A DNA stretch of 64,000 bases from Amoebophrya sp. A120 (GCA_905178155.1 CAJINV010000004.1:11143655-11207654); one strand, 5' to 3'. Numbered from the stretch's first letter, positions 6,649 to 59,000 are shown. Numbers and translations are program-made. Notes: generated by a model not told the origin, from the letters alone.

Positions 6649-9600
6649 TCACACGACATCCACGACATCCTCTATCGGCGTGCCATCATCTAACCCCTTG
6701 ATGTTGTTGTTCTTCGCAAAGAACTGCCCTTCCTTGCCGTTCGTAGAAGAAGTATTCGCATCTGCACCAACAACCACTTGTGCCGTAAGGTCAAACGGCT
6801 TTACGTAGCCGGACTTCGTGTAGCCCGTGGGAATCGAGTGCGTCAACAAGCGACTCAAGCCCGGCAGCGTGAACGCGATAAACGGAAAAGACAGCAACGA
6901 GTAGACCACTTTTCCCCAGAACACCTCAGCGCCCAGCTCCGAGGTGTCAAACAGCGAGGTGTCGCCGCCCCGGTTTGCGGCCAAGAGAACGACGAAAAGG
7001 ACTCCGATATGGCGTTCGCAAACGTTACACTTTCACACTGTATACATGAACTTGTGAAGATGCAAGAATTTTTATGAGCAAAAGTCGTGAGAGGGGTGGG
7101 GAGGGGGGACCTTAAGCGTCTTGCGTTACAGATTTGGCACGACGGATTCTAAATGCTAATGCTAAGTACTTAGCGCGTCAAAGACTTTTTGTTACGCGAA
7201 GAAGCTTGATCGTCATCATGTGAAGCACGACCGTTGATTTCGCATGACAAATCATGTAACAGTTGAGAACAATGTCTCGTTTGAGAATCCCATATCCGAA
7301 TAGAAAACAGTACATGTCGTACACCAGCAGCGGAAGAATGCGGCCGCCCCGCTTTGTATTGTACGTGATGCGACAACAGGGAAGAAAACTCTCCAAGTTA
7401 AAACAGCACTGCACGACCTCTTCCGCCTCCGCGTCCCTCCGGTCCGCAGCAGCGTTGGCCCGCTGCGACTGGAAACTCGACCCGCCATGCTTCTCGGAGA
7501 AGGGCAGAGACAAAAAGGCCGTCCAGGTCAGGAAAATGTTGAAGAAAAACTCGAGCAGCGACAGGGCCAGGCCGTCCGTAATGTTCTTCCCCGGGCCGCT
7601 GGCTTCGCAGTTTCTGGTTTGCACGCACGAGTAGTACTCCATGGAGCCGTAGAGCGCCATGAGCACGCCCCCCGTGACGAACTGCATTCCCTTGAAACCC
7701 AAAATGTACTGCACCAGAATGTACTCGTCCGGCCGCCTTTGACCTCTCGGGGTCCCGCAGCAAACAAAAAATAAAACCACCGCGAAGAAGAACCCCCGGA
7801 CGGCGAAGACCGGCAGCAGCGTGAGGAGGAAGAAAAGCACGAAGACCGGGTCCCGGAATTTCCCGAACATGCTCTTGTCGTACGGCAGGTAGTGGAACAA
7901 AACGAAGGCGCGGAACCAGGAGAACGGCCTCGAACGAGCCCAGAAGTCGGTACAGCTGCAGCAGACGAGGTCCACGTCGTCTCCGATGTTGGACTTTTCC
8001 GTTTTCAACACGCTCGTTTTGATGGCGAGTTTTGCCTCCTCTTTCACGTCCTCCCAAAGCCTATGGAAGTGTCAGGTTTGAAATCGTCAAAGTTGAAATA
8101 ATTTGCAATGCATAAAATGCATGCCCCGAGGTACGTGTGTTGCAGAGCAGGCAAGTGAGGCCGATTGTAAGCCTGTTTGGGGTTACAGCTCGAGCTGCTA
8201 AAGTAGCATGAGAAAATCACTCTTCTTTGCCTAAACAGCATGACAAACTGGATTTACAGACCGCCGAAATTTGTCATGCGCCACTTGGAAAATGGGTTCC
8301 AACTGGCATCCATCTTATGCATGACAAATTATTTCAACTTTGTCGATTTCAACTCTGACACATCCATAGAGCCCGTAGAACCCGTACACGAGCTTCCTCT
8401 TCACGCATTCGCACATGGCGGGGTCGTCGACCAGCGTGTTGGCAAAGCGGTCCCGGATTTTGTTCAGCAGTTTCTCCAACACGTTGTCACTCATATCCAA
8501 CGCGGTCGCTTTCTATGAACTGCAAAAGTATCGCACTCGTATAAATGCATGACAAATTCCCTCAGCATGAGAAATAAAATTTGTAATGCGGATTTACCTA
8601 AAAAAAAGAATTTGTAAGAGTGAGGTAACAAACTAAATCTGGAACTTCGCGGTTGAGTTCTCATCCGGCCGGTGGCCGGATGAGAACTCAACCACATCGC
8701 CGGCCGTATCCGGCCGGGCGGCCTGCGCCTGCCCGATCCTCTTCCGCCCTCCTCCACCGGTGGACCCACTCTTCCCCCTCACCCGTCCCCGAGCCGCGTT
8801 GCTTCGCTATGCAAAAAGCCCCACCCTTGTCATGCAAGGACAGCGGAAAGTGCCGAAACCCACAAAGCAGATGCCTGCGCTTTCATCTATTAGCTTTGAT
8901 CTGTGCTGCCATTTCCGCTCCTATTGCACGCAGTTTGCGTTTTCTATTTTTTATTTGGGAGGATTTTTCCCGCTCACCTGAAGAAGTGCACTCGCAATTC
9001 TATTTTTTATTTACGCTTCTAGGTTTGTGGCCCCTACTTCCGTCGGGGTTGGTCGATGCTCAGCTGGCTCCACCGATAGACCGCTGGCAGCGAGCGGAAA
9101 ACCGCTTAAAGCGGGAAGCCGCCGGAAGTGGGGAGCCGCTGGAAGCGGGGAACCGCTGAAAGCGAAGGAACCGCTGGAAGCGGAGAACCGCTGAAAACCG
9201 CCGACGGACCGGTGGCAGCGGGCGGCCGCTGAAACCGCGCAGCCGCTGAAAGCGGGCCACCGCTGACAGCGGGCAATAACTGAAAGCGGGCGGCCGCTGA
9301 AAGCGGCCAACCGCCGAAGGCGGAAAACCGCTGGCAGCGAGCGGACAACCGGTGAAAGCGGGGAACCCGAGCGGGCAACCGCCGAAAGCGGAGGCATGGT
9401 TCCCCGCTTTCCGCGTTTCCCCGCTTTCAGCGCTTTTATGTCCGCTCGCTGCCAAGGATTCATCGCTAGAGCCCGCTGAGACTCGACCACCCCCGACGGC
9501 AGCAGCGTGCTGTTGTCTGTCTCCCCTGCTTGTTGCCACAGGGCCCCGCATTTGGACAGAGACAGAAGCGGGCAGTCTACGCCAATAACCTAGGGCGCGC

Positions 9601-11446
9601 GAGTGCCACTATCGTGGTGCACTGGCTAAAAACGCAGGGGGCTGTGACTGCGCCCCGAAGCTGCGAGAGCCAGAACAAAAAACGAAGTAGCAGGAAGCTG
9701 ATGCCTGCTATTAACTAGTAGCAGTACCGCTGAAGTAAAGCGCAGTCGCTCCGCTTGCATGGAGTCTAACTTCTGGAAGTGCAAACTCAGAAGCACGAAT
9801 AGAAATAAGTAGGAAAAATAGAAAGCACAAACCGCGCGAAATAGTAATAGAAGCGAAAAAGAAAATAGCCGCACAGACAAAGAACAGAAAGCGCACGCGC
9901 CTGCTTTTGGGGTTTCGGCGCTTTCCGCTGCCTTTGCAGGGCGCTGCCTCTGCATTACAAAGCTGGGGCTTTTGGCCTAGTGAAACTAACAACGCGGCCA
10001 GTGGATCGACCGGTTGGGGACGGGGGAAGAGGACCGGGCCGGCCAGCCGGATTCCGCCGGTGATGTGGTTGAGTTCTCATCCGGCCGGCGGCCGGATAAG
10101 AACTCAACCGCGAAGTTCCAGATTTAGTTTGTTACCTCACTCTAATGCAGACTTGCATTTATACGAGTACGATACTTTTGCACAGGAAACTTTCAGATCT
10201 TCCACGATTCCCGCCTTTTTGTCCTTCAAGGTTTTCTTCGCGTGCAGCAGCAGGTCGCGTTCGCCCGCGGGAAGGAAACTGTACAGCTGGTCCGCCGACA
10301 TGGACTGCAGCAGCGACACCTGTTCCTTGGACATCTTGAAACCGCTGTACGCGCCCAGGCCCGCATCCAACGCGGCAGACGCCGCGGACTGGCCGAGCGA
10401 CTTCCCCTTCGCGGCCGCGGTGTCTATCCTATGCAAAAGTTGTATCGCACTCGTAATAATGGCTGGCATCGTTCGTTCGTGTGGATCGGCTCTGCCGACC
10501 GGGTAACCCATCGCCTGGCATGCATGGCAAGTCTAACTTTCTACCTTGTCCAGCATGACAAACTGCATTTTTGTTTCTGGTAAAATTCTGGTGCGATTTC
10601 TACTACAACGATACTTTTGCAATGCATAGTGTCCACCCGCTGCTGGTTTTTCTCGTTCAGATTGCTGTATGCCTTCTTCCCCACCTCCACGCCTGCAACC
10701 AGCGCGACGTCCTTTGCGGTGGCGGCCGCGCTGCTGACCACTTGCTGCGCACCGTACGCGCCACCGGCGACGAGGCCGACGGCCTTCCCCAGGTTTTTCG
10801 CGGTGGGAGCCGGCAGGGATGAGGACATCATCGTGTTTGCGTTTGGTGCGGCTTTAGAGGAGGAGTTGTTCATCATCGTGTCTACTTCACCTGTAGTTTT
10901 TGACACAGCAGCAGGAACAGAGACTTGGTGATCTTCGCAGGGTCGTTCTACTTGCGCCGCCGGGGGGGTCGGCGTGAGAGCTACTGGTCCTATAACATCT
11001 TGCTGTTGCACCAGCTGCGCCGGGTCAGTTTCACCTGCTCGTGGTAAATTTCCTGAAGCAAAACCTGGCTGGGGCACCACAACAGCGGAAGTAGGTGCTG
11101 CCGGAGCAGCAGCAGAATTCGGATTCGGCTCGCGGGAAGAATCATCTGTCGCTCCCTCCTTGTTTGCGGTTTGTTGTTCTGTGTTGTCGGAACCGTCCGC
11201 GTGTCTACTACCAGGCGGACCATTCATCGCCTTCTTGTCATTTGTAGTCGTGGTCTTCATTTGTTGGGCCGCAACTTTCATGGCCTCCTTCCCCAACGCA
11301 GCTCCAACTTTGAGAGCGCTCTGCCCGACTTTCCCCAGAGCCTTCTTCTTGTCCGCCAAGCCGCTGCCGCGGGCGGCAGAGGTCGCAGAAGTTGTCCCGC
11401 CGCGACCAGGCGGGTTCGGATCCGTCCCAGCTGTATAGCCCTCCAT
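6649..11446 (-). CDS. Multi-pass membrane protein of unknown function, 5 exons separated by 4 introner elements
   Basis: ORFs 10541-11476, 10137-10511, 8315-8500, 7178-8047 and 6649-6984 join in frame after element removal (QQRVDTAAAK, VEDLKATALD, FYGLWEDVKE, FLFGVLFVV); several hydrophobic TM segments. Confidence 0.8.
7008..7294. mobile_element. Introner (TIR element acting as intron)
   Basis: TIR tatggcgttcgcaaacg / cgtttgagaatcccata; perfect direct repeat tccga on both sides; excision restores the frame. Confidence 0.85.
8062..8368. mobile_element. Introner, long-TIR family (same family as 12693-13000, opposite orientation)
   Basis: ~55-bp TIR tatggaagtgtcaggtttgaaatcgtcaaagttgaaataatttg; flanks aagcc/gagcc; can be read as an exact GC-AG intron. 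Confidence 0.9.
8618..10142. mobile_element. Non-autonomous foldback DNA transposon nested in an introner (TAA TSD, PIF/Harbinger-like)
   Basis: ~80-bp near-perfect TIR gagtgaggtaacaaactaaatctggaacttcgcgg..., imperfect IR extending ~400 bp; TAA at 8615-8617 and 10143-10145; no convincing ORF. Confidence 0.85.
9081..9392. repeat. Tandem array of CCGCT-nnn-AGCGG mini-palindromes (~17-bp period)
   Basis: About 16 degenerate copies such as ccgctgaaagcgg, ccgctggaagcgg, ccgcttaaagcgg. Confidence 0.8.
10425..10628. mobile_element. Introner
   Basis: TIR tatcctatgcaaaagt / acttttgcaatgcata; direct repeat gtgtc; excision restores the frame. Confidence 0.85.
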
Positions 11447-12059
11447 GTTTCCGAAAAATCTCCGGTTGCTCTTCAAATTGGTTTCGTTCTTGTGAAATTT
11501 TTTTCCACTCTTTAAGTATTACCGTTCTCTTTCCGTTTCCGAGATACTTACAATAATTCCAAGTATCGCAGTGGTACCTACTCGCTGCTCTCAGCACACT
11601 CCTCGCACAGCTCAAACTCAATAGCGTGGCTTTCGTTGCTCAATAGTGCTGCGCCGGAGGACCAGTAGTAGTAGAGAACGTACATGCTAGTGTTTTGATT
11701 TTTACCCCTCCGCAATAAAACCCGCCCTATTTTCGATGATGCGCCGCAGTCAAACAGCGCCAAACCTCCTATGCATTTAGACGGGAACGTTGAGCCGGCT
11801 AAAGTACGTAGGTCCCGAAGGTGGAATTCTAGTTCTATCTTCCTCAAGCTGATCAACTTCTACTTTATTGAAAAAAAAACTACGTAGTACGAGGAGCGAT
11901 TGAGTCTTAATGGGGTTGCTCGCCCAGCACTTGTGACTCCACCTGGCGCTCATCTTCTGTACAGGAGATGAACTACCTCCAGATGATAGCCTGCAAAGAA
12001 TACACGTACTACGCATTGTCGATGTGCTACTATGTATTTTATTCCAAGGTTCGTGTTCC

Positions 12060-14455
12060 CTACACCACACTCCAGAGCTTTTCCAGCGTGACTCCCTCCT
12101 TTAGTCGTTCCATCGCCAGCCCAATCTCCGCGTTGAACACGGGCTCCTGGGTGATAAAATCCTTCTCGCCGTCCGCATGGTACAGCATCGACGGCTCCAC
12201 GACGTCGTCGTTGTCTAACAGCTCAATGTCGTCCTCCTTCTGCGGCACGGGCACCGGCGGTTTGTTCGCGGCGGCAGGACCGCCGTCCTCGTTTTCTTCG
12301 TCATCCTCGGGCTTACTGATCGTGAAATCAACCCCAAAAACCGGATTCTGGGTGATATCCACGGCAAAAGCATAAGCAAAAGAAGTAAAACGTCATGTAT
12401 CCAAAATCCTGCACGACAGCGGTACTAGGGCACAATTGGAGCAGCGAGTGGAAGCGAAGTGCATCACACTCCTTACTCTTCAATATCAATTTGTATTTTT
12501 CACCAGGCCGAATTGCATATCTTGACCCTTACTCCACCAGATCTTCTTTATCCCCGTGGCAACCAAGTAGAATGCTCAGAAAGCTGTAGAGCTATACTGT
12601 CTTTCCCTATCTTTTGCGGTGCATATCTGAAAATTTTCCACAATTTTGCGATCTGCTTCCGGATTTCCTCCAGGTGCGAGACTGGGTCCGCTTATGGATG
12701 TGTCAGGTTTGAAATCGTCAAAGTTGAAATAGTTTGTCATGCATAAAACGGATACCAGTTAGACCTACAGTTTGTAGTCGGTGCATGACAAATTTTCCCG
12801 GTCCTGGAAGCGAGTCTGTCATGCGGTTTAGGGCAAAAGAGCTGCCTTCTGTCATGCTAGTTAGCAGTCCAACTTTTGACCCTTACCAGGACTATAATCT
12901 GCCTCCCGTGGGTCCTCTGCAACAGAGTCGCTTTTTGTGTCGCATTTTATGCATTACAAATTATTTCAACTTTGACGATTTCAAACCTGACGCTTCCATA
13001 CCGCTCGGAATCCGAGTATGTAGGAACCGGACCCGGGGGTCGTTTCCAACACCAGCGTATGCATTGCAAATATGTCTGGGTCTGGAAACTTGTGATGCTG
13101 GGTGGCATATCATGAGGAAGCCACAAGTGCTGCCTCTGCATGGCAAGTTTCTGGGCTTCTAGGTAGGTGTTGCCTATTCTGCATGACAAACTGCGTTTCT
13201 GCATGACAGAAGAATGGAGCTCTTGGGTAAAGTGCATGACAGATTTAAGATTCATGCCAGACAAGCATGACAAACATGCATTCTTCCAGACCCAGACATT
13301 TTTACAATCCATACAGCGCTTGTCCGAACTTGCTGTTGCGCACGTTGATGGACTTGATCTGCATGTAGGGAATCGACACGTTGAAGTTTTCGGCCAGACT
13401 CGCGAACCAGACCACGCGCACGTTGGTGATGGTGAAGGTCCCCAGGTTCCCCTGGTCGGAGGAAAGGTTCCAGATTCCCTGCACCTTCTCGTAAACCTGC
13501 TCGTTGGGGAGCAGGCACAACTCCTTGTTGCTGATGATCGCTCCGCGGAGCTTCAGGTCCCGATACAGCTTGGTGGACTCGTAGGCTTTGAAGACCGCTT
13601 GCGTGGTGGTAAACAAGCGGGGGGAGTTGCGGACCAGGGAAGTGAAAATGAACTCGAACCGGGTATTGTTGAACCGCGTCATCACGAACAGCGCCTGGGT
13701 GTTGCCACGCAGGCGGCTGTTGACCAGCTTGATGTTCACGTTGGTCACGCAGGAGAACCCGATGCTCAGATTCGTTCGCGCTGACTTCGCGGACGTCCTA
13801 TGAAATGCAAAAATGTCTGGGTCTGGAAGAATGCAGGAGTTTGTCATGCAGATTTTGCATGACCCATGAGGTCTGTGATGCATGCCCTAGCATCAGAGAT
13901 TTTGCGAGGGCGTTCTGATGCTAATACCGCATGAGAAACGCCCTCTCCGCGTAGCACAAATTACACCTCTTTTGCTGTTCGTGCAATACAGATTTTATGT
14001 AGATTCCAAAAGTGGCATCACAAGTTGTATCCTTCCAGACCACCCAGACATTTTTGCAATCCATACGTCCAGAGAATGCGCAAATTCGTCACGATCAGCA
14101 TGCCGCGATCCCCGTTGTTCCCCTTCGTGTCTTCCACCGCATTGATGCTGTCGATTTGGAAACTATGCATTTTTCTACAAGGTTGGTATCTTCGCACTGG
14201 TAGAACTAGCGAATCAAAAAAACCGCATCACAAATGTACATTTTCAGAAGGAAAGATTCAGCATGTCGTGAGAAAGCAGCAGAGCTGTCTTGATGAACTT
14301 CATGCAAGTATGTCGCGATTAGTCTAACCACGTGCACGATCCAACTTTTTCACTAGATAGAACTCGCCCTTCCGCAACTTCTGCACCTGCGGGTTCTGGT
14401 CAAATTTGATCTCCCGGTCCTGCCAGACCTCCTCAAAAGCAGGCTCGTCGGCCAT
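12060..14455 (-). CDS. BBS5: Bardet-Biedl syndrome 5 protein (BBSome), 6 exons
   Basis: Spliced product has [88 protein letters not shown]; all five introns are TAT...ATA elements. Confidence 0.96.
12356..12625. mobile_element. Introner (older, partly degenerate)
   Basis: TIR tatccacggcaaaag / cttttgcggtgcata; flanks ggtga/tctga; excision gives KIFTQNPVFG. Confidence 0.8.
12693..13000. mobile_element. Introner, long-TIR family
   Basis: ~55-bp TIR; direct repeat ccgct; excision gives GFRADP of BBS5. Confidence 0.9.
13058..13313. mobile_element. Introner, tgtctgggtctggaa family, subfamily A
   Basis: ~30-bp TIR; direct repeat cagcg; full-length similarity to 44064-44315 (same orientation) and 32200-32451 (opposite). 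Confidence 0.92.
13799..14065. mobile_element. Introner, tgtctgggtctggaa family, subfamily B
   Basis: TIR tatgaaatgcaaaaatgtctgggtctggaag; direct repeat cgtcc; similar to 36923-37184 and 32518-32779. Confidence 0.9.
14164..14359. mobile_element. Degenerate introner-derived intron
   Basis: TAT...ATA ends, flanks gaaac/gaact, internal TIR decayed; an in-frame GT-AG reading is also possible. Confidence 0.6.
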
Positions 14456-19072: not shown

Positions 19073-20395
19073 TCACGCCAGGGCTCTCCGCACGCCAAGA
19101 CCCCCCGGCGCCGTGGCCGACCTCGGGCTGCCCACCGGCACCAACGGGCGGATACGCAGGAATGCGCAGTCGGTGTCGGTGAACTCGATCTGTCCCGCAA
19201 AGGTTTATCCTATGTAAAAACGTCCCCACCCCATAGTTGTCATGCAAATCTGCATGGTAAAAATGTTTCTCATGCGGAGCCCTATGAGGAGCGTTCTCTC
19301 GTCGTGTTTTGAGATTTGTGATGCTTGAATCAGCATGCTAGGCTAGATCTGTGACGCTGCTGGGGCTTTCTAAACAGGATTATACTGCGAGGCCAAACTT
19401 GTCAGGCGCAGCAACCAAAGCTGGTGGATTTGTCTAGCAAAATTCCCATCTTGACTCTGGTGTGAGGACGTTTTTACATCGGATAAGGTTTTGGCCAAAT
19501 TCACCTCCTTCTCGGCGAGCAGCTTCATCGCCCTTTGGCGCCTCCTCTCGACCCGCTTCAAGGCATCGTCGTAGAGTCGACGGCATCAAATGCAAATATG
19601 TCTGGGTCTGGAACGACGCGAACCTGTGATGCACATTCCACAACACACAGAAATCTCTCATGCATAGGCAGTAAAAGATGCCCACTTCCTGTCACCAAAG
19701 TGGGAGATTTGTCATGCGGATTAGGCATTGCGAAACCTTCTCGAAATCTGTGATGCTGGGCTTCCATGACAGACCTTCTGTGTCATGTAAAAACAGCATG
19801 ACAAAAATCTGCAGTCTTCCAGACCCAAACATTTTTGTATTTGATAGACGGAAGACTTTGCGGCACAGGTAGGCGTTCAGACCTGTTGTACAACCAGTAA
19901 CATGCTGGAGTTTCTGCTTGCGTTTTAGAATATTCATATTCTCAATTTTGGAACCATTTTTACCGTAGATTTCGTACGCCTCTTGCACTTCTTTTTTGCA
20001 AATTCATCGACGGAACAAGCGAAGCGTCGTGCATGAGCAGAGCAGGACTAGAATGCAAAACCAAGAAATCACGTTCTTTATCAAATACCGCTATCCTTGA
20101 CCAATTTCCCGACCTCCTGTCCTATACCCCGATCTGCCGCCAGGGCCTTCATTTTTTCCAAGGAGGCCTGCACGGTCTGCAGGTGCTCGGAAATCGCCAT
20201 GTTTTCCGCCACGAGCTTCTGCATGTCCGCATTCTGCTGCTCTAAACGCTCCTTTAACAGCGTGATCACCTCCGCATTCCGCTCCTCCCGGTCTAGTAAC
20301 AGGTGCAGCTGCTCGGCGTCTGGGGGTTGGAGCTGCGCCACCCGTTGCGCCTGCTCCCGCACCTCCGCTGCAAATCCCTCGGCGGCGGAGGGCAT
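19073..20395 (-). CDS. Coiled-coil hypothetical protein, 4 exons
   Basis: Exon 20395-20089, GT-AG intron 20088-19883, then two introners; spliced DSGLNAYLCRKVFRRLYDDALKR...AKTFAGQIEF. Confidence 0.75.
19206..19485. mobile_element. Introner
   Basis: TIR tatcctatgtaaaaacgtcc / ggacgtttttacatcggata; direct repeat aggtt. Confidence 0.88.
19584..19846. mobile_element. Introner, tgtctgggtctggaa family
   Basis: TIR catcaaatgcaaatatgtctgggtctggaa / ttccagacccaaacatttttgtatttgata; direct repeat gacgg. Confidence 0.88.
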
Positions 20396-35904: not shown

Positions 35905-35976
35905 ACTCAACAGACCCTGAAATCTGATCCTCGGACTCAACAGACCCTGAAGTTGGACCGAAATCTGATCCTCGGA
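35905..35976. repeat. Short tandem duplication (~30-bp unit)
   Basis: actcaacagaccctgaa..atctgatcctcgg occurs twice, the second copy with an insertion. Confidence 0.7.
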
Positions 35977-36314: not shown

Positions 36315-39300
36315 TCAGTAGTAATCGTTGTGCGTAATGGGTCTTCGCATGCCGTCGGTGTCCTCCCGGAACTCTCGCAAGAACTGCTTCCCGATGTCCT
36401 TCGCCGCCAGCCACTGCCGGTGCATGTCGGCCTCCCGCTGAAAGTAGATTTTGCGTATCAGCTCAAATAGCCCACTGTCCTCCATCTCCTTCGCGGCCTC
36501 GGGCACTGCCTTCGCGACGTTTCTCAAAGTGAACAGCACGGTGGTCACCACAGAAGCGTTGTTCTGTAGATTTTTGCAACATGATTTTCATCTGTCGGCA
36601 CAAGCTACACAACGCTCGTGCACAAGCACAAGAACGACCTGGTACCGCCCATAGGTGGAATCTTCATCCCCAGAAACGATTCTACCACATGCATCTGAAG
36701 ACACGACGACCATGCTGAAATACTAAGTCCAAACGTTGAACAACCCTTGATAGTATTACAACGCAAGAAGAAGTACCTGGTATTCCGCCAGCACCAGCAG
36801 TCCCATCGCTGCGATCCGCATGGGGTCCGCGTTCAGCGTTTCGCAGATCTGCGGTTTTCTCAAGGTCAGGTTACTGAACAGGCCGAACGCCTGCTCCACA
36901 ATCGCCGTGCACTTGGTGTACTTATCAAATGTAAAAATGTCTGGGTCTGGAAGAGTGACAGACTTGTCATGCAGGTTTTCCATGACCCATGAGGCCTGGT
37001 ATGTAGGACATAGCATGACAGATTCTGCGTTAGGTCTATCATGCCTATCCTGCATGAGAAACTGCCTCTCGATTAGGTCAAAAGTGGAAAGCTTTTGGTA
37101 ATCACGCAACACAGATTTTTACATGATGCAGATTTAGCATGACAAGTTGCATTTTTCCAGACCCAGACATTTTTACATTTGATAGTACTTCCGCAGTACC
37201 AACATGGCGGTTTTCGTGATCTCCGCGTCCGTGTTGGTAAACAGTATAGAAGGAGAAATGGTGATCGCCGACAGTGATCATCTACCAAAGAAAAATCGCA
37301 GCACACCCTCGCGGAGCGGGTTTGTTTTTTAACGGACCGAAAAAATGGCGCAGCTTTTCGCAGAGTGTGGCAGTGTTCACTGCGCACATTATGCGAGCAG
37401 TGCATGCCGGAGATGGGAAAGGCCGACAATGGCCGGACGCTTTGGGGGCCCCAGGTGCTTAGTGTTAGTTTTCATGGTTGCTGGACGCATGAAACCACTC
37501 TTCCCGTCTGGCCACGAGCGCCCACGCGTTTTGGTCGTCGAGCGCTCTTACCTCGGCCGGGGCGCGGCGCTTGAAGAGGGTCGGGGCCATAGCGTAGAGC
37601 CGGTTCGTTTGGAATGCCATCCCCCGCCTGGTTCGGGCCCGGCTCTGTGCCTCGACCTTGCCCGCCTGCCGCGAATGCGTCAAGGCATCGACGGGCCGGG
37701 GGCCCGGTTCACACACTTCAATCCGATGACGGCTGGCTTTTGCGTGCCGCCAAGGGCAGCAAATACACGGAGCCGGCGGAGAAGCGGCTCCGATACGTAC
37801 TAGCAACAAGCAACGGAGGCCATGCCGTCGGTTCTTAATTTGCACCGACGGCACGACGCAGTTTGGTGAAGAGAAAGAACGCGGCGCGACTTTCGCGCCC
37901 CGGCTTCAACATGAAGACGGCGAGGCACCTTGCTGCACGGCCGCGGCAGCTCCTGCGGCGAGTCTCTCATAGTCGGCGCAGGCACGGACCGCGATAGACA
38001 CTCGCTATGCCATCACGCAGGGCCCCGGCCTAGCGCCTGCCAAGAGAGAACAAAGAAAAGGAAAAGCAGCGCCGCCAAATATATATAAACTTCACCCGGC
38101 GACGAAGCGCATGCCACGCCCGGCGCAGCCGCGGAGCCGGCTCACCTGAGAAGAGCGCAGAACCCCCAAAGCAGCCACAGCGCTGCACCGCCTCGAGCCT
38201 GGCTGCCAGTTCCTGCACCGGCCTCGGGCCCTAACTGTGGGCGGCTGCCCCACTTGTAATTTGCAGGCCCAGCCTGGAGCCAGGGCTTCCGGGCCTTCAA
38301 GGAACTGGCGCAGAGCATACTATAGCAAGGCGTTGCTTCTTCATCTTCTTCGACAACGTGCTGCATTTCTCTCAAAGAAACGCGTTGTCGGAAATGAGTG
38401 TCGGAAGACTACAGAAAAACACTGATCTAAATGAGAGTCGAATCACTGATCATGAAACAAAAAGACCCTAGTTGAATGCTGATCATCAAACGACTTTTTT
38501 GATTTGATGATCACCTTTGTTAGCTCGTGGTAATGCTGATCATCAAACGATTTTTTTGATTTGATGATCAGCATTCAACTAGGGTCTTTCTTTCTTTCTT
38601 TCTTTCAATGCCAGGGCATGGCGTCAATTGTTCGAGACCCCAGGGCACTAGGGTCTTTTTTTTTCATGATCAGTGATTCGACTCTCATTTAGATCAGTGT
38701 TTTTCTGTGATCTCATTAGATCAGTGGCGGTTTTCGTGATCTCCGCGTCCGTGTTGGTAAACAGGTCCTTCATGTGGTCGGAAAACGCGAATTGACGCAG
38801 CACGAACAGACACGCGCGCACAATGCTCTGGTGCCCGTAGGACAGCGTGTCCTTGATCAGGGGCAGCACGTTGTCCTCGAACACGAACTTGTGGATGCGC
38901 TCCTGGTGGCACCCGACCTCCTTCATCAGCAGCAACACTCCCTCCAGCCGGTACCACTGATCAGGAGACATGGGGGATTTTTTCGGCTGCTCCGGCAGTT
39001 CGGCAGAACTGCTACTGGAAGTAGCATTATGTGCTGTCTGCTCACCACCGAGATTTTCCTTTTCCAGGTTGTCGTCGATGCTCTGTTTCATGCTCCGAAA
39101 CGAGCGGACGATGATTTCCCTCACCCGCGGGAACCTTTCGCGGTCACACACGTAGTCCCGGTTTTCGACGGCAGACGGCACCATCGACTCCCCGCCGCGG
39201 CTGTCGTCGTCCGTGACAATGGACCGCAGCGCCCAGATGCCCTGGGTTTGCACCTTCGCGCTTTCAGAGAGGTATTCCAGGATTTCTAGGAGCAGGTCGA

Positions 39301-42886: not shown

Positions 42887-45800
42887 TCAAAATATAAAAC
42901 TGTACTTTTTCTCCTTCGCATCCTGTACTAATACCACGGTGGCCCATATGGTGACGCCTAGAATCAGAGCCGCGCCGCTGCCAACCAGCACCACGCCCCA
43001 CCACGGTAGCCCGAGGAACTCCCACTCCGGCTCCGGCACGGGCGCCTTCGTGCTCGTCGTCGTCGTGGTTGGCAAGAGGATCACGCCCACCGACGGCGCG
43101 GTGTTCGTCGCGCTGGCCCGCGCCTCGCTGATGGTGAACCCTGTAATCGTCGGATCGTTGGCCACGGCGGTCTGCACGGACGTGAGCAGTGCGCTCAGCT
43201 CCGCATCGGTCTCCAGGGTCATGGTCTGCGCCTTGGCGGACGCGGCCTCGGGCGTGGCGAAGCCCTTCAACCTGTAGTCGAATTCTACCGGTTTTGGCAC
43301 GTTGTGCGACAGCAAACGACTGCGAGTCGTTTCTGCATCCTCCTGGCTTACTTTCTTGTTTCCCGCAAGCTGCAAATGACGCGGCTCCAGTGCGCCAGAG
43401 CTTGTGTAAGCCACTGGTGCTGGTGTTGACGATGACAAAACCAAAAGTCGTTCTTTTTCTTCAGTTTCCTCTACGCCTTGCGCTGTTGACAATTTCCTCT
43501 GTAAAACCTGTTGATTCCGACCATTAGCATGGTCGTGCAGCTTTTGGTGTACTAGCTCTACTTGTGGAACAGCATGACCACCTGGAGATGTTGATGATGT
43601 TCTTACGTCCCGCGGGTCCCAGCGCTCTATAGTTTCAATGTCGACAGCTGCACTACTGGCACTGCTTCGAAGATGGTTAGACCTGGTTGCCTTCTCATTC
43701 TCCACCTCGGCTGCCCCTTGCTGTTTTTTTTGTCCTCGTCCCCCGTCTGCACCAGCAAGCTGCACAGCAGAATTGGCTTCTTCTACTCCACCACGACCTA
43801 TCAGTGACCGCCTGCGTTCTGTGATAAACCGCATTGCTATTATCTCGATCAGTGCGGGTACCACGCCGAGAAAGTCTGCCAAGCCCGTCTGCAACGCGGG
43901 CCCCAGCGAGCTGATCAGCTGCGCCTCCGTGGTGCCCTGTGGAATTGTCATGACCAACTGCGCGGACGCCTCCACGCTGTAGCCCTCCACGGTGGCTGCG
44001 TCGACGTTGGCCACAGCCTCGCTGACGCCGAAGGGGAGAGCCGTGTAGGTCGACGTGGTGGTGTATCAAGTGGAAAAATGTCTGGGTCTGGAAACTTGTG
44101 ATGCTGGGTGGCGTCTCATGATGAGGCCACAAGTGCTGGCTCAGCATGACAAGTTTCTGAGCTTCTAGGTGTTGCCTATTCTGCATGACAGACTGCGTTT
44201 CTGCATCACAGAAAAGCGGAGCTCTTGGGTAACGTGCATGTCAGATTTAAGAGTCATGCCAGACAAGCATGACAAACATGCATTCCTTCAGACCCAGACA
44301 TTTTTGCAATTCATATGGTGGTCGTGGTGGACGTGAGCGTCACCGTCGTACTGGTCGACGTCGTTGTCGTCGTGCTGGTAACCGTGATGGTGGTGCTCGA
44401 CGTTGTCGTGGTGGTTGAGGTCACAAGGACGGTTTCATTCGTCAGGTTCGTCCCGTTTGCTGATCCGTTCAGAGGACCGAAGAAAACCCCCATAATATCA
44501 TCAACATCGTCGTCGATGACAAGCAGAATTGCACTGTCGTTACTGACATTCTGCGTGCCGTTCGATGTTGCTCCCGTACCATTTGGAGCGCCTGACCCCG
44601 CGTCTATATCGTCGTCAAACGCGACAGAGCTGGCGGTGGTTTCGTTGGAGCCGTTTTGAGAGGACGCTGGCGCGGTAAAATTCGAGTCATCCTCTTCGTT
44701 GAGCACGTCGTTCCAATTGTAGGAGACTTTCGTCTGGTTCATGCATTGCAAAAGAATCGTCCAAGTCTAGTAAGTCGCACGTAAACATAAAAAAGGTCTT
44801 TGTTATGATGCGGGTTCAGAGAAAGATGAAGCAGATCTATTGCCATGTTGCAACTACACCCTTGGCAGTTCATACGAGTTGTACGATACTTTTGCAATGG
44901 ATATGGTTCACCAGTGTGCAGTTGGAGGAATTATCACTCGTATTCGTGTCGTTGCTGCAGTTGCTACCCGGCAAAAAGTCGAGCACGTAGGAAACCTCTG
45001 GCGCCGGCGTCGTCGTCGTTATGGTCGTGGTGGACGTCGAGGTCGTGCTGGTCGTCACGGTTGTGGTGGTGGTGGAGGTGCTCGTGGTTGTGCTCGTCGA
45101 GGTGGTCGTGCTGGTAGTGGTCGTGGTGGAAGTTGTGGTGGAGGTTGTCGTCGTCGTCGTGGTATTCACTGCCTCGGCGCTAGACGACGAGGTGCTCGCT
45201 GCTGTCGTGGCGAACGCGGAAACAAAATCGTTCCGTTCCAGCTCCCCCTGGTGGTAGCCCCCGGTGACGTGCGGGGGCCGCTCGTAGTTGCACACTATGT
45301 CCACCGGCTGACACGTAATCGCCCCCGTGATTTGCGTGTTCGAGAAGCCGGTCGGCGTGGTGCCGGCAAGAAGCACGTTGGAGTTCGCCACGAGGCTTGT
45401 GACGCCAGTACTCGTGTCCTTGCGGCAAATGCCGATCTGCGCCAGCGTACCCTGGTAATTGTAGTCGAATCCGGTAATTTGCGGCTGGAGAATGTCGGGG
45501 GAAATTCCATACACCGTGTACTCCGTCGTGTTGTAGTACGGATTCGAGCCGCAATCCGTGTGGTAACACACGGGAACCGCGGTGCTGCTACTGGGCACGG
45601 AAAAAACCCCGACACCCGCTGTAGTGGTGCGCAGAAGTTTTTCTTTTTACTGAGCATGAATTCAGTTATACATGAATGAATCAAGTGTGAACAATCATCT
45701 CATGATGAGATGATGAATCTTCACGATCACATTATTTTTTCAAAACACGACCTGGTCTCTTATCCTTCAATGGTAAAAAAAAGTGCAAATTCGTCAGGCG

Positions 45801-48800
45801 TACGGACGCTGATGGCGGCCCGAAAGTTGGACATGAAGCTGTAGCTGCTGTTTCCTGGTATTTGGTGGTAGTAATTTAGGTAGTAGGTCGTGCCCGAAAT
45901 CGTGCCTTGCGTGGTGAAGTAGAATTTGGTCAAGTCCTGGCAGTAGGTTCCGGTGATGCTGGTATCGTAAAACGGACAGTAGTCTAGAAGCGAGCTGGAC
46001 CCGCCCTGGTTGCTCGCACCGGAAAAGTACTGGAACTTTGTTGGCAAAGCGGATCCATAGCTCGAAACTGTGCAACGCCTGACGCTCAACGCGCGGGCGG
46101 AAGGACGGTCCACCCCGTTGGTATTGCAAAACTCATGGAAGTTCTGATTTGTCGATTAGATTTGTTCTGCTCGCAGTATTGTTACACACTCTTCATCCGC
46201 TGGCGACGAGCAGCAGTCGCATGAAATTCATGCGCATACATTAGACATACGTAGTCGTTCAACTTCCAATGGCCTCTAAAAATAAAACTCGATGTCACGT
46301 CGACGCCCAAAGCGGACGAGTCAACTGTAATTCAAGTCGAAGCGGAAGTGACGAGCTACAACTACTTCATTTAGTTTCTAGATCCAGTACCGTACTACAA
46401 CAGGTACTTTTAAACAAAAATCAATACTGTAGTCCCGCTGGTGAGGCAGGTTCCTGTGATAAACTCGCATCCCCTGTTGTACCCCCAGTGCAGGTCTTCG
46501 ATGGGTTTCGTATCGCACGATAAAAGTGCTTCACGGTATACGAAAATCGTGGAAAGTTGGCATCACAAGTTTGCTTTCCTGCACGGTGTTGCACATGCTC
46601 ATGCATGTGGTGTTCTTGCCCAACAAATTTACAGAGAAGCACATACACAAATACTTTTATTTTCTTGCGATATTTTGACGCCCGCGTGTAGTCGGGTTTG
46701 TACCAGCCACTGTCTTCGGCCAAAGCTAGAGTCATGGTCGAGAGCCAGTTGTAGTCGCAGCCCATGCCGCCGCTGGGGACCATGAGCTCGCAGTGCACGG
46801 ATTTCTGTTCCCAGTGCGAGGCCACCGGAGAGCAGGACCCCGTGTCCGACGCTTCGAGCGGCGCGCCGGTTAGACTCGAGCAGTTAAAGTACTCACGGGC
46901 CTTTTCCTGCACCTTCGGGGTAACCAAGTCGAAGGCGCACTTCGGGTTGGTCTGATAGGTCGTCAAGCAGTCGGCCCAATCGGTGACGCTGTAGCTGGTC
47001 GGGTTCGCCTTCACGTTCGTCGGGCACTTGCACTCTGACGTGGTAAAACCGCCGTGCGCTGCGAGGCCTGCTATACCATCGTCGGAATCAAACAGGTCGT
47101 GCGTCCTGTGATTTTGTTTTTTCGTGGCGTTTGCTTTTAGTGCAATGGTTTTCTGAAAGAATTGCTATCAACAGGGAGCTTCTTCTATGTCTTCTCTCAT
47201 CTTCTTTTATTTTTTTTGTATGGATCGCTAGGTGCAAAGCTTTCTAGGAAAAGAGTTACCCATGCCAAGCTTCAGTCAAACAAAATCAGGGAAAAGCGGC
47301 ACTTTCTAGCAGGAAAAAACGCAGCTGCGCATGCAGGCTGCAGGAGGCAGAGTAACAGTCGCTATGCCTTGCTTCTTCGGAGAAAACAGGTATAGATAGC
47401 AGGAAAATAAGAAAAAAGTGTGCCACTTCGCAGCATACAAACAACAAATATAAGCACATTCACGCCTGCTTTTGCAATTTGCATGCAAGTTCATAAACTT
47501 GTTCAACTTTTACTTTTGCAACCCTCACGCAACAGAGATAAAATCATAATCTCGTCATCTAATCTCTCGCACAGCGGAGCGATGGTCCTACAAAAATTCT
47601 CCAGACAACCATACACGTGGCGCCAAGGAAGAGCATTCAAATCCTTGCAACATGCAGATCAGAATATTCAGATTTCAAATTCAAAAAAATAGTACTACTC
47701 AACCGAAGATATGAATTTCAATACCAGATGCTTCCTCCGCTGTTATCGTTCCAGGTGACACTCCCTGAGGAACTGCACGAGAACCGTGTCGTTGTCACGG
47801 AGTCCACTGCCGAAGCGGGCGAAATGCGCAAATTTCCCCGGTCGTCCCGGAAGTAGGGGTAAAACGACGCTGAGAAGTAGATTGCGTGGATCACTTCGTG
47901 CACGCTCGTCGAAACGACGTCGTCGAGCTTCGCGAGCGTGGAGATACTCGTGTACCCGCCGTTGTCCTGGTTCGTGTTGGTGAGGGTGCAAAAGGTGACG
48001 GTGCCGAACATGGGTTTCCCGCACTGGTCCTTGACGCACGCGCCCGCGTACGCCTGCGTTCCCGAGCTCGCGCTGCAGCCCGAGCCCTGGAGGTCGATGT
48101 AGAGATAGAAGTCCGCGTCCTCCACGGCCTCCCCCGTTGTGGTGGCGGTGTTAAACGTGGCTACACTGGAGAGGCAGGATTGCCGGTAGACGTCCGGGTA
48201 CAGGCGGTCTCGGGTGGTGAACCTCCGCGTTTGAAACGTCGTGCTGAAAAAGGAGAGGGTGAGGGTCAACACTTCAGACTCGAGGCGCGAAACAAAATCC
48301 TGCACCCGGCTGTCGTAGTTGCTCGCCGTATAGTTACTGACCTTACTCGCCACCCCGCCACTGATCTCGATCAATTCGTACTTGATCCGCATATTCCCCC
48401 ACCCGCTGCTGTGATCTTCATACAGGTGTGCGCAAGTCGTGTTGTCTGCCTCGGTCAGCATTCGTTGCTGGTTCATCTTGTCCACCTCCTCGCCAAGACC
48501 TGCTGGTGCGACGAAGGGGTTGAGCGCATGAGTATACTTCTTGTTCATCACACTGCTCTCTTCTACGGAGTTCTTGGTTTCGGTGTAGTCGTGTGCGTCC
48601 AACGACCTCCTGGCCAGATGGTTCCCGTCATGGCTCGGGTCCTCGTCTTGGCCGTGGTAGTACGTCGGCACGCGGCTCCAGTCAACCATGTGCTGTGCAG
48701 AGCCGCGGACGCCGGGTAGCAGAAGGCTTCTTTTTGTTTTTCCGTAGTTGTGCACATGGTCCTCCTGACCATGTGTGGAAAAAAACACAGACCCCGCATC

Positions 48801-49121
48801 GCTCAAGAGCAGGACGAGTTGTACAACTGCTATCGCTTGCCACAAAATATTAAATGTGGCCGAGGCATTTTTACCGGGACGAGGGGCGAAGAACAAAGGA
48901 AGAAGAGGACGTGTGGCGCAGCCTCCTCGTCCGCCGGAAAGAACCAACGGTTCTCTTAGTTCTTTCTCTTCCGAGAGTAGTCCATCTCCTGGTTCACCTG
49001 GGGGAGGACGAGGACCTGGACCTGCTCGTGGTGCTACATCATTTTTAGTACAACCCGCAGTCCTCTTCCGTGCTGGTCTCCAGAGAAGTTTCTGCATCAT
49101 GTTGATGCTACCGTACTTCAT
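42887..49121 (-). CDS. Leishmanolysin/GP63-family metalloprotease (peptidase M8) with mucin-like stalk and TM anchor, multi-exon
   Basis: HEVIHAIYF (HExxH), SHWEQK, ELM, LSTMTLALAEDSGWY, LHWGYNRGCEF (after introner removal), LLDYCPF; Thr-rich tracts; TM LPWWGVVLV...; 3' end may extend to ~42267. Confidence 0.85.
44064..44315. mobile_element. Introner, subfamily A
   Basis: TIR; direct repeat tggtg; inserted in a poly-Thr tract; frame restored on excision. Confidence 0.9.
44740..44903. mobile_element. Introner
   Basis: TIR catgcattgcaaaagaatcgt / acgatacttttgcaatggata; direct repeat tggtt. Confidence 0.85.
46511..46672. mobile_element. Degenerate introner
   Basis: TIR tatcgcacgataaaagt / acttttattttcttgcgata; flanks tttcg/ttttg; excision shifts the frame to give the conserved M8 motif LHWGYNRGCEF. 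Confidence 0.8.
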
Positions 49122-56000: not shown

Positions 56001-59000
56001 CGGTCGCGATCGGGATCTTGTCGTTGGGGTCCGCGCCCGCGTTCGCCTCGCGCGCGCGGTTGCCCCGCGCCTTCAGAAAGCCCTCAATCAGCTCGCCGCG
56101 CTCCGCCGCGGCGTACACCGGGTCGTAGTAGCCGTCCGCGGTCACGTGCGTCTGGTGCTTCTTCATCCGGGCGAGGGCGGCCTCCAGCCCGCCCGTGGTG
56201 GCGGTTTCGTAGTCGCCGCGGTTCGGCAGGTACCCGCCCCCGGCGGTCAGAATCTCCTGTTTCCTCTTCGCCTTCGAGAAGGCCTCTTGCCAGCTCGTGC
56301 CCTCGCTCGCCACCTCGTACTGCTCGGGGGGCGCCCAGCCGCCGTCCGCGGCCAGCGGATTCATCATCTGCTTCGCGACCTTTTTCGCGTAGTCCGCCGT
56401 GAACCCCGCGCCGCGGAGCGCCGTCTCCACCTCGCGGTGCGCGCACTGGTACGCGGTCTCGGTCTGGATCAGGGGGAACAGGTGGTGCAACTTTGTCGTC
56501 TCGGGCGTGAAGTCCAGCTCCCGCAGCACCGCCACGTCGGAGGGCGAGCTGGCGTAGGGCCAGCCGCCGTCGACGCCCAGCGAGTTCTGAAACTTCACGC
56601 ACTCCTTCGCGGCCTGCTTCGCAAAGTCCGGGGTGAAGCCGAAGGACAGCAGACAGTTCTCGAAGTCGCCAAACTCCAGTGACTCGCCCGCCACCGCGAG
56701 TGGGTCCAGGCGGGAGATCGCGTTCGGGGCCCGCAGCCACGCCTTCACGTAGCCGCGCAACTCGCCAACGGACTCGGCGCCGCCGAAGCCCAACCTCTCA
56801 AACACCGTCGTGTTCACGCCCTTCGCGGGGAGAATCTTTGTCTTGTCCACCACCCGCGGGTCCCACAGTTGCCGGGCTAGGGCGGTCGCGTACTTCTGCG
56901 CGAATCCCATGTTCAGCAGCGCCTTTGTAACCTCCGCGGTCGAGAAGTCGAACAACTGGTTGTCTCCGACGTACCCAATGGGCACGTCCTGGAGGTGTTG
57001 CGGGAGGTTTTCCCGCTTCAGGTTGGCCGGGTCGAAGGGGTCCAGTGCCTCGGCGGTGTCGCCGGTGTACTTCCCTTTCTTGTTTTTCTTGCCGCCGGTT
57101 TTACCAACCTGCATGTGCACTATCCCGTAGGTGTCAAACACGTCCCGGCGGCCGGGGCCGTAGGGGTCGTCGTCGCGCCCCCCCGGGTGCTGGTTCGCGG
57201 TGTACCCGGGCCCGCCGCCGCCCGCCTTCCCACCGGGGTGGAACGGGGCCTTGCCGCGGTTCGCCTCCGAGGCCGCCTGGCCGGGCTGGCGGAAGAAGTT
57301 GTTGAACGGGTTTTTCTTGCCGTAGCTGTAACTTCGCTTCTTTTTTCCGCTCCCGTCGTCTTCGTCCCCGTTGTTATCGTTGAAATTGTTCCCGCCTATC
57401 CCGTGGAAAAACGTTCCAACCCCCTACTAGACTTCTTGGTCATGCAGAGATTCGCATGACCTCTTGTAAGGAGCTTTTGCAAAGCGCACCCTCGTATCAG
57501 GATCGGGACTCACTAGACTACAGACCCATAGAAGTTACTCTGCGCAACTGCATCTCGTCGCACTCGCCATACTAGTAAATCTAAAACTAGTATACGTACT
57601 CGAAAAAGTAAAGTGCCTACAATGCATACATAGAAAATTATCTACCAGTGCCATGATTTTGACTTCGGGGTAGTGACGTTTTTGCACAGGATACCGCTGT
57701 CGTTGTCGTCACCGCCACCACCTCCACCGCCCCCGCCGGGCGGTTTGCCCACGAGCCAATCTGGCCCTGGCGGAGGTCCACCTGGGGACCCCGGCTTGTT
57801 CTTGCCGCCCGATTTGTCTTTCGCTTTTCCCGACTGGTTGTTGTAGCTGCGGTTGTCGATGCTTTGGCCCGGGCCATAGTTGCCCATGCTTCCGCCGTCG
57901 AATTTCTTGCCACTATGGGTGGGGTTTCCCCCGCTTTCGGATTCGTCGTCGTCGTCGCCGTGACGACCGCCGCCACTCTTACTCGACCCGCCCGGGCCGC
58001 CACCGCTGCTATTATAGGGCCCGCCCTTATCTTTCTTTTTCTTCTTTTTCGAGCCGCCGTCGCTATCATCGTTGTTTCGACTGGAAAAAGAATCGTCGCC
58101 GGAATCGCCGGGGCGGCCCGACTTGTCCTTCTTTTTCTTCTTCGTGCCGCCGTCGGTCTCATCGTCTATGTTGGACGTGCTGCCGAAGGGGTCGTCCGAC
58201 TTCCGCCGCTTCTTGCCGCCATGGGAGTCGTCGCCCCCACCGCGCGCCGACGGGCGCGCCGACTTCCGTCCCCCGTCGCCGCCACGGGCGGACTTCCGGC
58301 CCCCGTCACCGCCGCGTGCGGAGGGCCGCGCGGACTTGCGGCCGCCGTCGTCCTTCCTCTTTCTCGACCCTGAGTCGCCGTCATCGTCGCGGTCGCTACC
58401 GCTTGTTGCGCCGCCCTTGTTATCCTTGCTGCGGTTCTTTTTATCATCCGGTCCGCCGCCGCCCGGCATCCTCGACTTGCGGTCCCTTGGCGTGCTACCG
58501 CCGTCTCCGGGGCTGCCCCCGCCCCCGCGCTGCGACTTGCGGTCGTCGCCCGGTCCACCGTGGCGTGCCGAGGGGCGCGCGGACTTCCGGCCGCCGGGTG
58601 GTCCCCCGGGCGTCTGCGACTTGCGCGCCTCCTTGTCCTTCTTCTTTCGGTCCTTATCCCGCTTTTTGATGTCGTCGCTCCACTTTTTCCGCACCAGGGC
58701 GCGCGCGTGCCCCGCGTCCTTCGTGTCCTTCGCGTTGTCCTGCACCGCCTGCTTGTCTTTCTTGTCCGTGGGCTTGGGCAGGTCCTGCTTGGGCGGGACG
58801 TTCGGGTCCAGCAGCTGGTCCGCCACCTTGTCGGCGTAGGGCGGCGTGAACCCGAACTCCTCCTCCAGCACCTTCTTCATGCGGTCCTTGGCTTTGTCGT
58901 TCTTCGGCGGTTTCGTGTCGTCGAAGTACTTCGGCCCCCGCTCTTCGTTGCCCGGCTTCTTCGGGTCCAGGATGTTTTGCATGTCCTGGCCCGTGAACAT

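What the first reader, a model, noticed from the sequence alone, without database searches (positions are those of the whole stretch)
7008..57693. Twenty intron-forming TIR transposons sharing TAT...ATA ends and a 5-bp target duplication
Seen: 20 elements, all inside coding sequence (starts 7008, 8062, 8514, 10425, 12356, 12693, 13058, 13799, 14164, 19206, 19584, 28919, 29230, 32200, 32518, 36923, 44064, 44740, 46511, 57397). They fall into several families with different internal sequence, yet 16 of 20 start TAT and end ATA; the other four have one altered end. All have 5-bp flanks, perfect in 13. Excision with one repeat copy restores the frame each time, including the conserved motifs GFRADP (BBS5), RNLGRDDR (ASNSD1) and WGYNRGC (M8). 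Known: inverted-repeat introners are reported from Amoebophrya. Inference: one unidentified transposase type mobilises all families. I found no intergenic copies, which suggests exon targeting.
Basis: partly seen in the sequence, partly recalled or inferred. Interest (0 to 1): 0.88.

Follow-up and report, generated by a model that had tools for sequence, protein, structure and literature searches.

The report
Hairpin transposon introns, fixed cut register

Summary
All 20 elements are present: 16 of 20 are TAT…ATA and 13 of 20 have perfect 5-bp flanks. Two more were missed (21341 in a UTR, 42040). The window is Amoebophrya sp. A120 (BBS5 exon 100% identical). RNA-type contigs of one sample lack element plus 5 bp at 15 of the 20; a DNA-like run keeps them. 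The elements are the introner elements of Farhat 2021 (TAT-starting inverted repeats, 5-bp direct repeats), and Gozashti 2025 lists one A120 family as Ginger-like with TA/TA ends and a 5-bp TSD. So the phenomenon is known. What I add: 11 imperfect duplications (8 here, 3 in a near-identical second assembly) all fit one cut register on the gene strand, exon-abcd|e-TAT…ATA-abcd|e-exon, and two sites fix it exactly. Farhat called the border variable or unknown. The end dinucleotides then come from the target site and show no GT/AG preference. This resembles Euglena's spacer-measured non-conventional introns. No transposase was found. Exon enrichment is real (21 of 22 in CDS), but targeting and survival cannot be separated. 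The scan noted similar hairpin introns before in other dinoflagellate DNA.

The parts
7008..7294 (-). TAT..ATA element, perfect TSD; intron at the inferred register 7004-7295 (AT..GG)
   Evidence: RNA-type contigs X1 and X3 join 7002 to 7295
8062..8368 (-). element (family with 12693), TSD 4/5, mismatch at gene-strand position 5
   Evidence: piece ends at 8057, 369-letter gap fits; register j<=4
8514..10189 (-). 1676-bp foldback-like element, arms about 370 nt at 70%, gene-strand 5' end TTT
   Evidence: RNA depth about 0.15 inside vs about 41 in exons, gap arithmetic
10425..10628 (-). element, perfect TSD
12356..12625 (-). element in BBS5, TSD 3/5 (TCAGA/TCACC); fixes the register exactly
   Evidence: piece ends at 12351; j=4 only; Ser261 only at j=4, Ser in 91 of 100 homologues
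12693..13000 (-). element in BBS5 (GFRA|DP), perfect TSD
13058..13313 (-). element in BBS5, perfect TSD
13799..14065 (-). element in BBS5, perfect TSD
   Evidence: RNA piece stops at 13792, far side not listed
14164..14359 (-). decayed element in BBS5, TSD 3/5
   Evidence: Glu31 (100 of 100 homologues) needs j>=2; no RNA joint listed
19206..19485 (-). element in a short ORF, perfect TSD
   Evidence: no RNA joint listed
19584..19846 (-). element, perfect TSD, gene-strand 3' end ATG
   Evidence: no RNA joint listed
   Evidence: RNA pieces begin at 21605 and run on (one side only)
28919..29173 (-). element, TSD 4/5; GT..AG only at the inferred register
   Evidence: joint 28913-29174 in 4 of 4 runs, 1 ambiguous letter
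29230..29378 (-). element, TSD 4/5, gene-strand 3' end ACC
   Evidence: joint 29224-29379 in 4 of 4 runs
32200..32451 (-). element in ASNSD1-like gene (RN|LGRDDR); GT..AG would be on the non-coding strand
   Evidence: joint in 3 of 4 runs; Pfam Asn_synthase
32518..32779 (-). element in ASNSD1-like gene
   Evidence: joint in 4 of 4 runs
36923..37184 (-). element, perfect TIR and TSD
   Evidence: joint in 4 of 4 runs
   Evidence: joint 42034-42316 in 4 of 4 runs, 1 ambiguous letter
44064..44315 (-). element in M8 peptidase gene
   Evidence: joint in 3 of 4 runs
44740..44903 (-). element, gene-strand 3' end ATG
   Evidence: joint in 3 of 4 runs
46511..46672 (-). element in the M8 domain, TSD 4/5
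   Evidence: joint in 3 of 4 runs; Pfam Peptidase_M8
57397..57693 (-). element in a 2657-codon ORF, TSD 4/5
   Evidence: no reads were laid here
12060..14455 (-). BBS5 gene with five element introns

Best explanation
The elements are hairpin-ended repeats with 5-bp target duplications that are removed exactly from Amoebophrya A120 transcripts; they are likely non-autonomous DNA transposons mobilised by an integrase-like enzyme, and are likely spliced by a pathway that measures from the paired ends, cutting one base before the 5' TAT and four bases after the 3' ATA. Shown: anatomy, removal of element plus 5 bp from RNA-type contigs, retention in a DNA-like run, and one register that fits all informative sites. 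Inferred: (1) insertion by a DDE transposase of the Ginger / IS3EU-GingerRoot kind with a 5-nt staggered cut, encoded elsewhere; (2) pairing of the inverted repeats in the pre-mRNA; (3) cleavage at fixed spacers (N1-TAT...ATA-N4) and exon ligation by a system distinct from the GT-AG spliceosome, as proposed for Euglena. The spacers sum to the TSD length, so an insertion anywhere in an exon leaves the protein unchanged. My odds: known A120 introners 0.97; fixed register 0.8; catalyst separate from the canonical spliceosome 0.5.
For: Identity: 100% to an A120 protein; A120 IR = TAT + 7 nt + AAA; 5-bp direct repeats in the Fig. S19 legend. DNA-like run X5 has unbroken contigs across 12356, 14164 and 21341 and into 7008. 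Register: RNA allows j<=4 (8062), j=4 (12356), j>=4 (28919, 42040), j>=2 (29230, 46511; 21341 from one side). Homologues give j>=2 (14164), j=4 exactly (L013: A120 homologue reads EEP), j>=4 and j>=1 (L040). The chance that 11 independently random registers share any value is 0.009. No dinucleotide rule: at j=4 in 185 oriented copies, GT 62, AG 20, GT-AG 9; no G..G or A..C covariation; the six ordinary introns with joints are all GT..AG. Farhat's nine commonest A120 non-canonical motifs all have T at +2, as N|TAT predicts. Euglena precedent with fixed spacers of 3 and 5 nt.
Against: The six window sites with two-sided RNA evidence alone would share a register by chance with p=0.145; the result rests on two exact sites, one of them from a roughly 70%-identical homologue. 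All RNA evidence is assembled contigs from one sample whose RNA status is a guess. A codon-likelihood test on 38 imperfect second-assembly sites could not separate registers. 23 of 44 mismatches there are synonymous by my hand count, which leaves room for occasional use of other registers. Two old elements do not fold better than shuffles as wholes (z -0.67 and 0.30), though their ends pair in the predicted structures. Ends altered to TTT, ACC or ATG are still removed, so exact TAT/ATA is not required. There is a weak, non-significant excess of AG|G at the register (AG 23 vs 15.2, GG 24 vs 15.0), as a spliceosome might favour. Table S4 motifs fit the mirror register too. No transposase was found, and Farhat reports none in A120.
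Confidence: 0.55

Rival explanations
1. The same fixed register, but catalysed by a modified spliceosome in which the terminal stem replaces U1 and acceptor recognition.
For: A120 has nearly all spliceosomal proteins and U2, U4, U5, U6, with U1 undetected (Farhat). 28919 is GT..AG exactly at the register. Weak AG|G excess. A listed tunicate paper ties mass non-canonical splicing to spliceosome changes (PMC13326754, search listing only).
Against: No preference for G at +1 or AG at the 3' end, and no G..G/A..C covariation, in 185 copies. L040 lost its intronic AG (GAAG to GCAC). Ordinary introns stay strict GT..AG.
Confidence: 0.33
2. Removal is real but the cut slides within the duplication; the apparent register is a coincidence of few sites.
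For: Farhat describes splice sites as variable relative to the hairpin. p=0.145 from six RNA sites alone. Many mismatches are synonymous.
Against: Eleven sites agree (p=0.009); two independent sites give j=4 exactly; each joint appears as a single form in the runs that show it (contigs drop rare variants).
Confidence: 0.15
3. The joints are reverse-transcriptase template switches across hairpins between direct repeats, and the genes are broken.
For: Direct repeats plus structure are the known source of false introns (PMC4176328, passages). Only cDNA-derived contigs were seen.
Against: At 12356 the joint lies outside the shared three letters, with no microhomology. The interior of 8514 has about 0.15 depth vs about 41 in exons. 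BBS5 is 91% identical to A25 over the exon searched, yet every retained element has a stop.
Confidence: 0.02
4. The elements are excised from DNA (IES-like), not from RNA.
For: TA-bounded transposon-derived sequences are excised from ciliate DNA (recalled). The X5 joint table was truncated (1070 rows not shown).
Against: X5 contigs of flat depth (about 28) run unbroken through several elements and their flanks.
Confidence: 0.03

Closest known systems
Introner elements (IEs) / non-canonical introns of Amoebophrya sp. A120 (Farhat et al. 2021, PMC7789003)
   Same: Same organism; IR begins with TAT, 7 variable bases, then AAA; direct repeats of 3-5 bp (5 bp in the Fig. S19 legend); about 240 nt; many families; no fixed dinucleotides.
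   Different: The paper leaves the border variable or unknown and rejects transposase mobilisation. Here the TSD is uniformly 5 bp and the cut fits one register. [quoted passage not shown]
A120 introner families in Gozashti et al. 2025 (PMC12130899), notably fam38 (Ginger-like, 5-bp TSD, TA/TA termini, Copia-integrase-like ORF)
   Same: TIR DNA elements of A120 with similar lengths; fam38 has the same ends and TSD.
   Different: In the 41 of 58 A120 rows I read plus fam38, most families are of unknown superfamily with automated TSDs of 2-6 bp and mixed splice dinucleotides; no common register is given. I did not map the window's elements to their family numbers.
IS3EU / GingerRoot DNA transposons (PMC10045372, PMC6839031)
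   Same: TA..TA termini, TIRs, GC-rich targets, integrase-like DDE transposase (for the autonomous forms).
   Different: Their TSD is usually 6 bp; here 229 of 322 are perfect at 5 bp and 0 at 6 bp. They are not described as introns in the passages read. No transposase is available here.
Euglena non-conventional introns (Nomura et al. 2025, PMC12501133)
   Same: No GT-AG; paired terminal motif; cut at fixed spacers, longer on the 3' side; coexist with conventional introns; MITE origin proposed.
   Different: Code N3-CDG...CH'G-N5-6|R against N1-TAT...ATA-N4 here; unrelated lineage; shown by knock-in there, inferred from 11 natural sites here.
Micromonas / Aureococcus introners (as described in PMC11282704 and PMC7789003)
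   Same: MITEs with TIR and TSD that become introns on insertion.
   Different: They carry or co-opt canonical splice signals; these need none.

Membership tests
Amoebophrya A120 introner elements | Occurs in the A120 genome | tested here: met
   exon 100% identical to an A120 protein; 357/357
Amoebophrya A120 introner elements | Terminal inverted repeat TAT + 7 nt + at least AAA | tested here: met
   of 44 ends T1 41, A2 42, T3 44, A11 36, A12 37, A13 41
Amoebophrya A120 introner elements | 3-5 nt direct repeat at the borders | tested here: met
   13 of 22 perfect, 9 with 3/5 or 4/5
Amoebophrya A120 introner elements | Removed from transcripts with non-canonical ends | tested here: met
   15 of the 20 supported; 1 of 22 is GT..AG at the register
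Amoebophrya A120 introner elements | Repeated in families | tested here: met
   internal identity 71-93% among several copies; 14 of 22 match second-assembly loci; very high summed depth on elements in X5
Non-autonomous TIR DNA transposon (MITE) | Short, TIRs, constant TSD, no coding capacity | tested here: met
   149-308 bp for 21 of 22; 5-bp TSD only; longest ORF inside 8514 is 192 aa of repetitive sequence (not scanned against Pfam)
Non-autonomous TIR DNA transposon (MITE) | Empty orthologous site in DNA | tested here: inconclusive
   homologous proteins are collinear across junctions, but no empty DNA site was obtained; the one paralogue pair aligned gave none
IS3EU / GingerRoot | TA..TA termini | tested here: met
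IS3EU / GingerRoot | 6-bp TSD (usual) | tested here: not met
   0 of 322 perfect at 6 bp
IS3EU / GingerRoot | Integrase-like DDE transposase of that clade | not testable with these tools
   no whole genome held; no transposase domain among 208 of 208 selected second-assembly ORFs or 22 window ORFs
Ginger1/Ginger2 | TG..CA termini | tested here: not met
   termini are TAT..ATA; definition from PMC6839031 passages
U2 spliceosomal intron | GT..AG ends | tested here: not met
   1 of 22; 9 of 185
U2 spliceosomal intron | Lariat and snRNA dependence | not testable with these tools
   needs branch-point reads or depletion
Euglena non-conventional intron | N3-CDG...CH'G-N5-6 code | tested here: not met
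   motif and spacers differ (vs 59)
Euglena non-conventional intron | Fixed spacers from a paired terminal motif (works-like feature) | tested here: met
   11 of 11 informative sites fit one register, p=0.009; modest power

The most novel reading that the evidence does not exclude
Amoebophrya A120 has a second, sequence-blind splicing system with a simple code, N1-TAT...ATA-N4. Its two spacers add up to the 5-bp stagger of one integrase-like transposase, so tens of thousands of insertions from many families are edited out without a trace. This would be an independent origin of Euglena-type, probably non-spliceosomal, stem-measured splicing, tuned to a transposon superfamily with TA..TA ends and a 5-bp TSD.
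Probability: 0.4. Interest if true: 0.78.

Novelty: already known. Interest (0 to 1): 0.47.

Why it matters
The elements are published, but how they are spliced and what moves them are open questions in the papers read. A fixed register turns the reported jumble of boundary dinucleotides into one rule that can be tested at once on existing A120 reads: imperfect duplications reveal the cut. It predicts where circles or lariats should join, lets gene models be placed correctly, and gives a direct comparison with Euglena for finding the catalyst. A uniform 5-bp TSD and shared end motif narrow the search for the transposase to integrase-like DDE proteins.

Tried and rejected
No whole genome was held and the second assembly could not be searched by handle, so the genome-wide census and transposase search were not done. 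No run holding the stretch is on record as RNA. The one raw-read RNA run laid (X8) matched only element ends, so it was uninformative. One homologue search used the wrong frame and found nothing. The TIR pattern had 0 matches in viral contigs. Rfam: 0 matches in the window. No transposase domain in 208 ORFs, chosen as >=130 aa and best-scoring under a host codon model, which could miss a transposase. Long TIR pairs: L021 (1104 bp, perfect TSD) has a 238-aa repetitive ORF without a Pfam hit; most other long pairs had imperfect or no TSD. Codon-likelihood test of register: uninformative. Invariant U at intron +2: true for 22 of 22 in the window but rejected as a rule, since altered ends were 8 vs 8 at 5' and 3' among 200 oriented copies. 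Pairing of the two bases next to the stem: 51 of 185, near chance. Horizontal transfer between species, suggested by a 71% hit, was rejected: exon-wise identity to A120 is 96-100%. No decayed copies were found elsewhere in the window by BLAST. Rows dropped: of 322 second-assembly elements, 276 had TSD >=3/5 and enough flank, and 185 could be oriented; the loci were retrieved with one family's TIR, so they are not a random sample. Literature: searches found no paper stating a fixed register for Amoebophrya; Roy et al. 2023 (Curr Biol) was not read, and figures in supplements could not be seen.
Full report
Observation. Scripts on the window recovered 19 of the 20 elements as inverted-repeat pairs with 5-bp flanks and the last, 14164-14359, as a decayed copy. 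Two more elements exist, 21341-21605 and 42040-42315. A scan with no TAT requirement found 13 TAT..ATA pairs in the window against 0-1 in each of 8 shuffles. All host genes are on the minus strand. Removing element plus 5 bp yields stop-free ORFs in 8 genes, and retaining any one coding element introduces a stop. The 44 ends share TAT-S-N3-TGY-AAAA, while interiors fall into at least three groups plus singletons.

Organism and genes. The BBS5 exon is 100% identical to an Amoebophrya sp. A120 protein and 91% to A25. The five-intron gene spliced in silico equals that protein 357/357 and is collinear with homologues (the A25 model has a gap at one junction). Pfam confirms BBS5, asparagine synthase-like and M8 peptidase hosts.

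Removal from RNA. Four runs of one sample behave as RNA: they show GT-AG joints and a poly(T) loose end, though their type is the tool's guess. Between 27600 and 47500 they show joints that skip exactly element plus 5 bp at 28919, 29230, 32200, 32518, 36923, 42040, 44064, 44740 and 46511, each in 3 or 4 of 4 runs. One 4325-nt contig joins 7002 to 7295 and leaves gaps of 369 and 113 letters, which equal the exon lengths after removal of 8062, 8514, 10425 and of 12356, 12693, 13058. A DNA-like run of flat depth keeps elements within unbroken contigs, with summed depth on elements thousands of times that of unique DNA.

The register. Write the gene-strand target as abcde and let j be the number of upstream-copy bases kept in the exon. 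Perfect duplications say nothing about j; mismatched ones do. RNA allows j<=4 at 8062, j=4 only at 12356, j>=4 at 28919 and 42040, j>=2 at 29230 and 46511, and j>=2 at 21341 from one side. At 12356 only j=4 gives Ser261, which is Ser in 91 of 100 homologues; at 14164 invariant Glu31 needs j>=2. A TIR-pattern scan returned 158 loci from one other assembly whose exons are 96-100% identical to A120. There, L013 reads PEKP for j<=3, PEEP for j=4 and PEGP for j=5, and an A120 homologue of about 70% identity has EEP. L040 needs j>=4 and j>=1. All 11 sites fit j=4: exon-abcd | e-TAT...ATA-abcd | e-exon. With independent random registers, some common value would exist with probability 0.145 for the six two-sided RNA sites, 0.054 for eight and 0.009 for all eleven. 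I examined only two second-assembly genes against homologues; a codon-likelihood test on all 38 imperfect oriented sites was uninformative.

What the ends look like. At j=4 the intron's first base and last four bases are target sequence. In the window the ends are GT 8, CT 8, AT 5, TT 1, with AG once. In 185 oriented second-assembly copies they are GT 62, AG 20, GT-AG 9, with base use close to coding expectation and no G..G or A..C covariation; a small AG|G excess is not significant. The six ordinary introns with joints are strict GT..AG. Two classes therefore coexist. The 12356 joint has no microhomology, which argues against template switching, the known artefact for such junctions (PMC4176328, passages).

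Transposon side. The TSD is 5 bp and no other length: 229 of 322 perfect at 5, at most 6 at lengths 3, 4, 6, 7 and 8 (28 at length 2, near chance). TA..TA ends resemble IS3EU/GingerRoot, whose TSD is usually 6 bp (PMC10045372, PMC6839031; passages), so membership is not met on that feature. No transposase domain was found. Coding enrichment is clear: 21 of 22 against about 57% coding, a lower bound because some multi-exon genes were left out (p=2e-4 at 0.6, 4e-3 at 0.7); 185 of 276 against 244 of 600 random sites; flank GC follows coding DNA. One copy is in a UTR and about seven second-assembly copies lie in AT-rich, non-coding-looking DNA. Targeting and differential survival were not separated.

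What is known. Farhat 2021 (PMC7789003; passages, sections 11, 12 and 16, supplement passages) describes 29,850 A120 introners with IRs beginning TAT plus seven bases plus AAA, 3-5 nt direct repeats, variable or unknown splice position, and undetected U1, and argues against transposase mobilisation. Its nine commonest A120 non-canonical motifs all have T second, as the register predicts, though they fit the mirror register too. Gozashti 2025 (PMC12130899; section 6, passages, 41 of 58 A120 rows of the family table plus fam38, SI legends) labels fam38 Ginger-like with a 5-bp TSD and TA/TA termini. Nomura 2025 (PMC12501133; abstract, sections 8 and 12) shows fixed spacers around a paired motif in Euglena; the review PMC11282704 (passages) notes their circular excision products. 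[quoted passage not shown]

Verdict. The feature is real and already known. The fixed cut register (0.8) and a catalyst apart from the GT-AG spliceosome (0.5, against 0.33 for a modified spliceosome) are the parts worth following. Interest 0.47.

Noticed in passing
window 37205-38764: A 1480-bp insertion between perfect 40-bp direct repeats. Removing it with one copy restores a 651-codon ORF; no GT-AG placement is evident. RNA contigs break at the repeat, and 37268-38440 is itself covered by an RNA contig. It has an internal 67-bp inverted repeat. Likely a second kind of non-canonical intron.
   Followed up: partly
window 8514-10189: 1.7-kb foldback-like element with arms of about 370 nt at 70% identity and internal short tandem units; still absent from the RNA contig.
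   Followed up: partly
window 6408-14455: One RNA-type contig spans BBS5, the spacer and the downstream gene; read-through or overlapping UTRs. A contig does not show a single transcript.
   Followed up: no
L001-L158 versus window: Insertion phase is uneven: in the second assembly 95/47/43 (intron phase 0 commonest, p=1e-6), but in the window phase 2 dominates (11 of 19). Unexplained.
   Followed up: partly
window 37614: A>G difference in all four RNA-type runs; assembly error, allele or editing.
   Followed up: no
window elements; 23821, 24892: The motif (TG)CATGACAAA / CATGAGAAA recurs inside elements in both orientations (23 of 29 hits) and occasionally outside; possible transposase-binding subterminal repeat or remnants of old copies.
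   Followed up: partly
window 12356, 28919; L016, L023, L051, L040, L054: Some mutations in the intronic copy of the TSD create GT..AG or AT..AC ends while others destroy an AG; no net trend shown.
   Followed up: partly
window 41899-49121: An M8 (leishmanolysin-family) peptidase gene whose RNA contigs continue from 47106 into sequence at about 47726, so the 47721-49121 ORF is probably its upstream exon.
   Followed up: no
window 53926-62200: A 2657-codon GC-rich ORF without Pfam match carrying only one introner.
   Followed up: no
L021:367-1470: 1104-bp member of the TATGRA-ended group with perfect TSD and a repetitive interior; no Pfam hit.
   Followed up: yes
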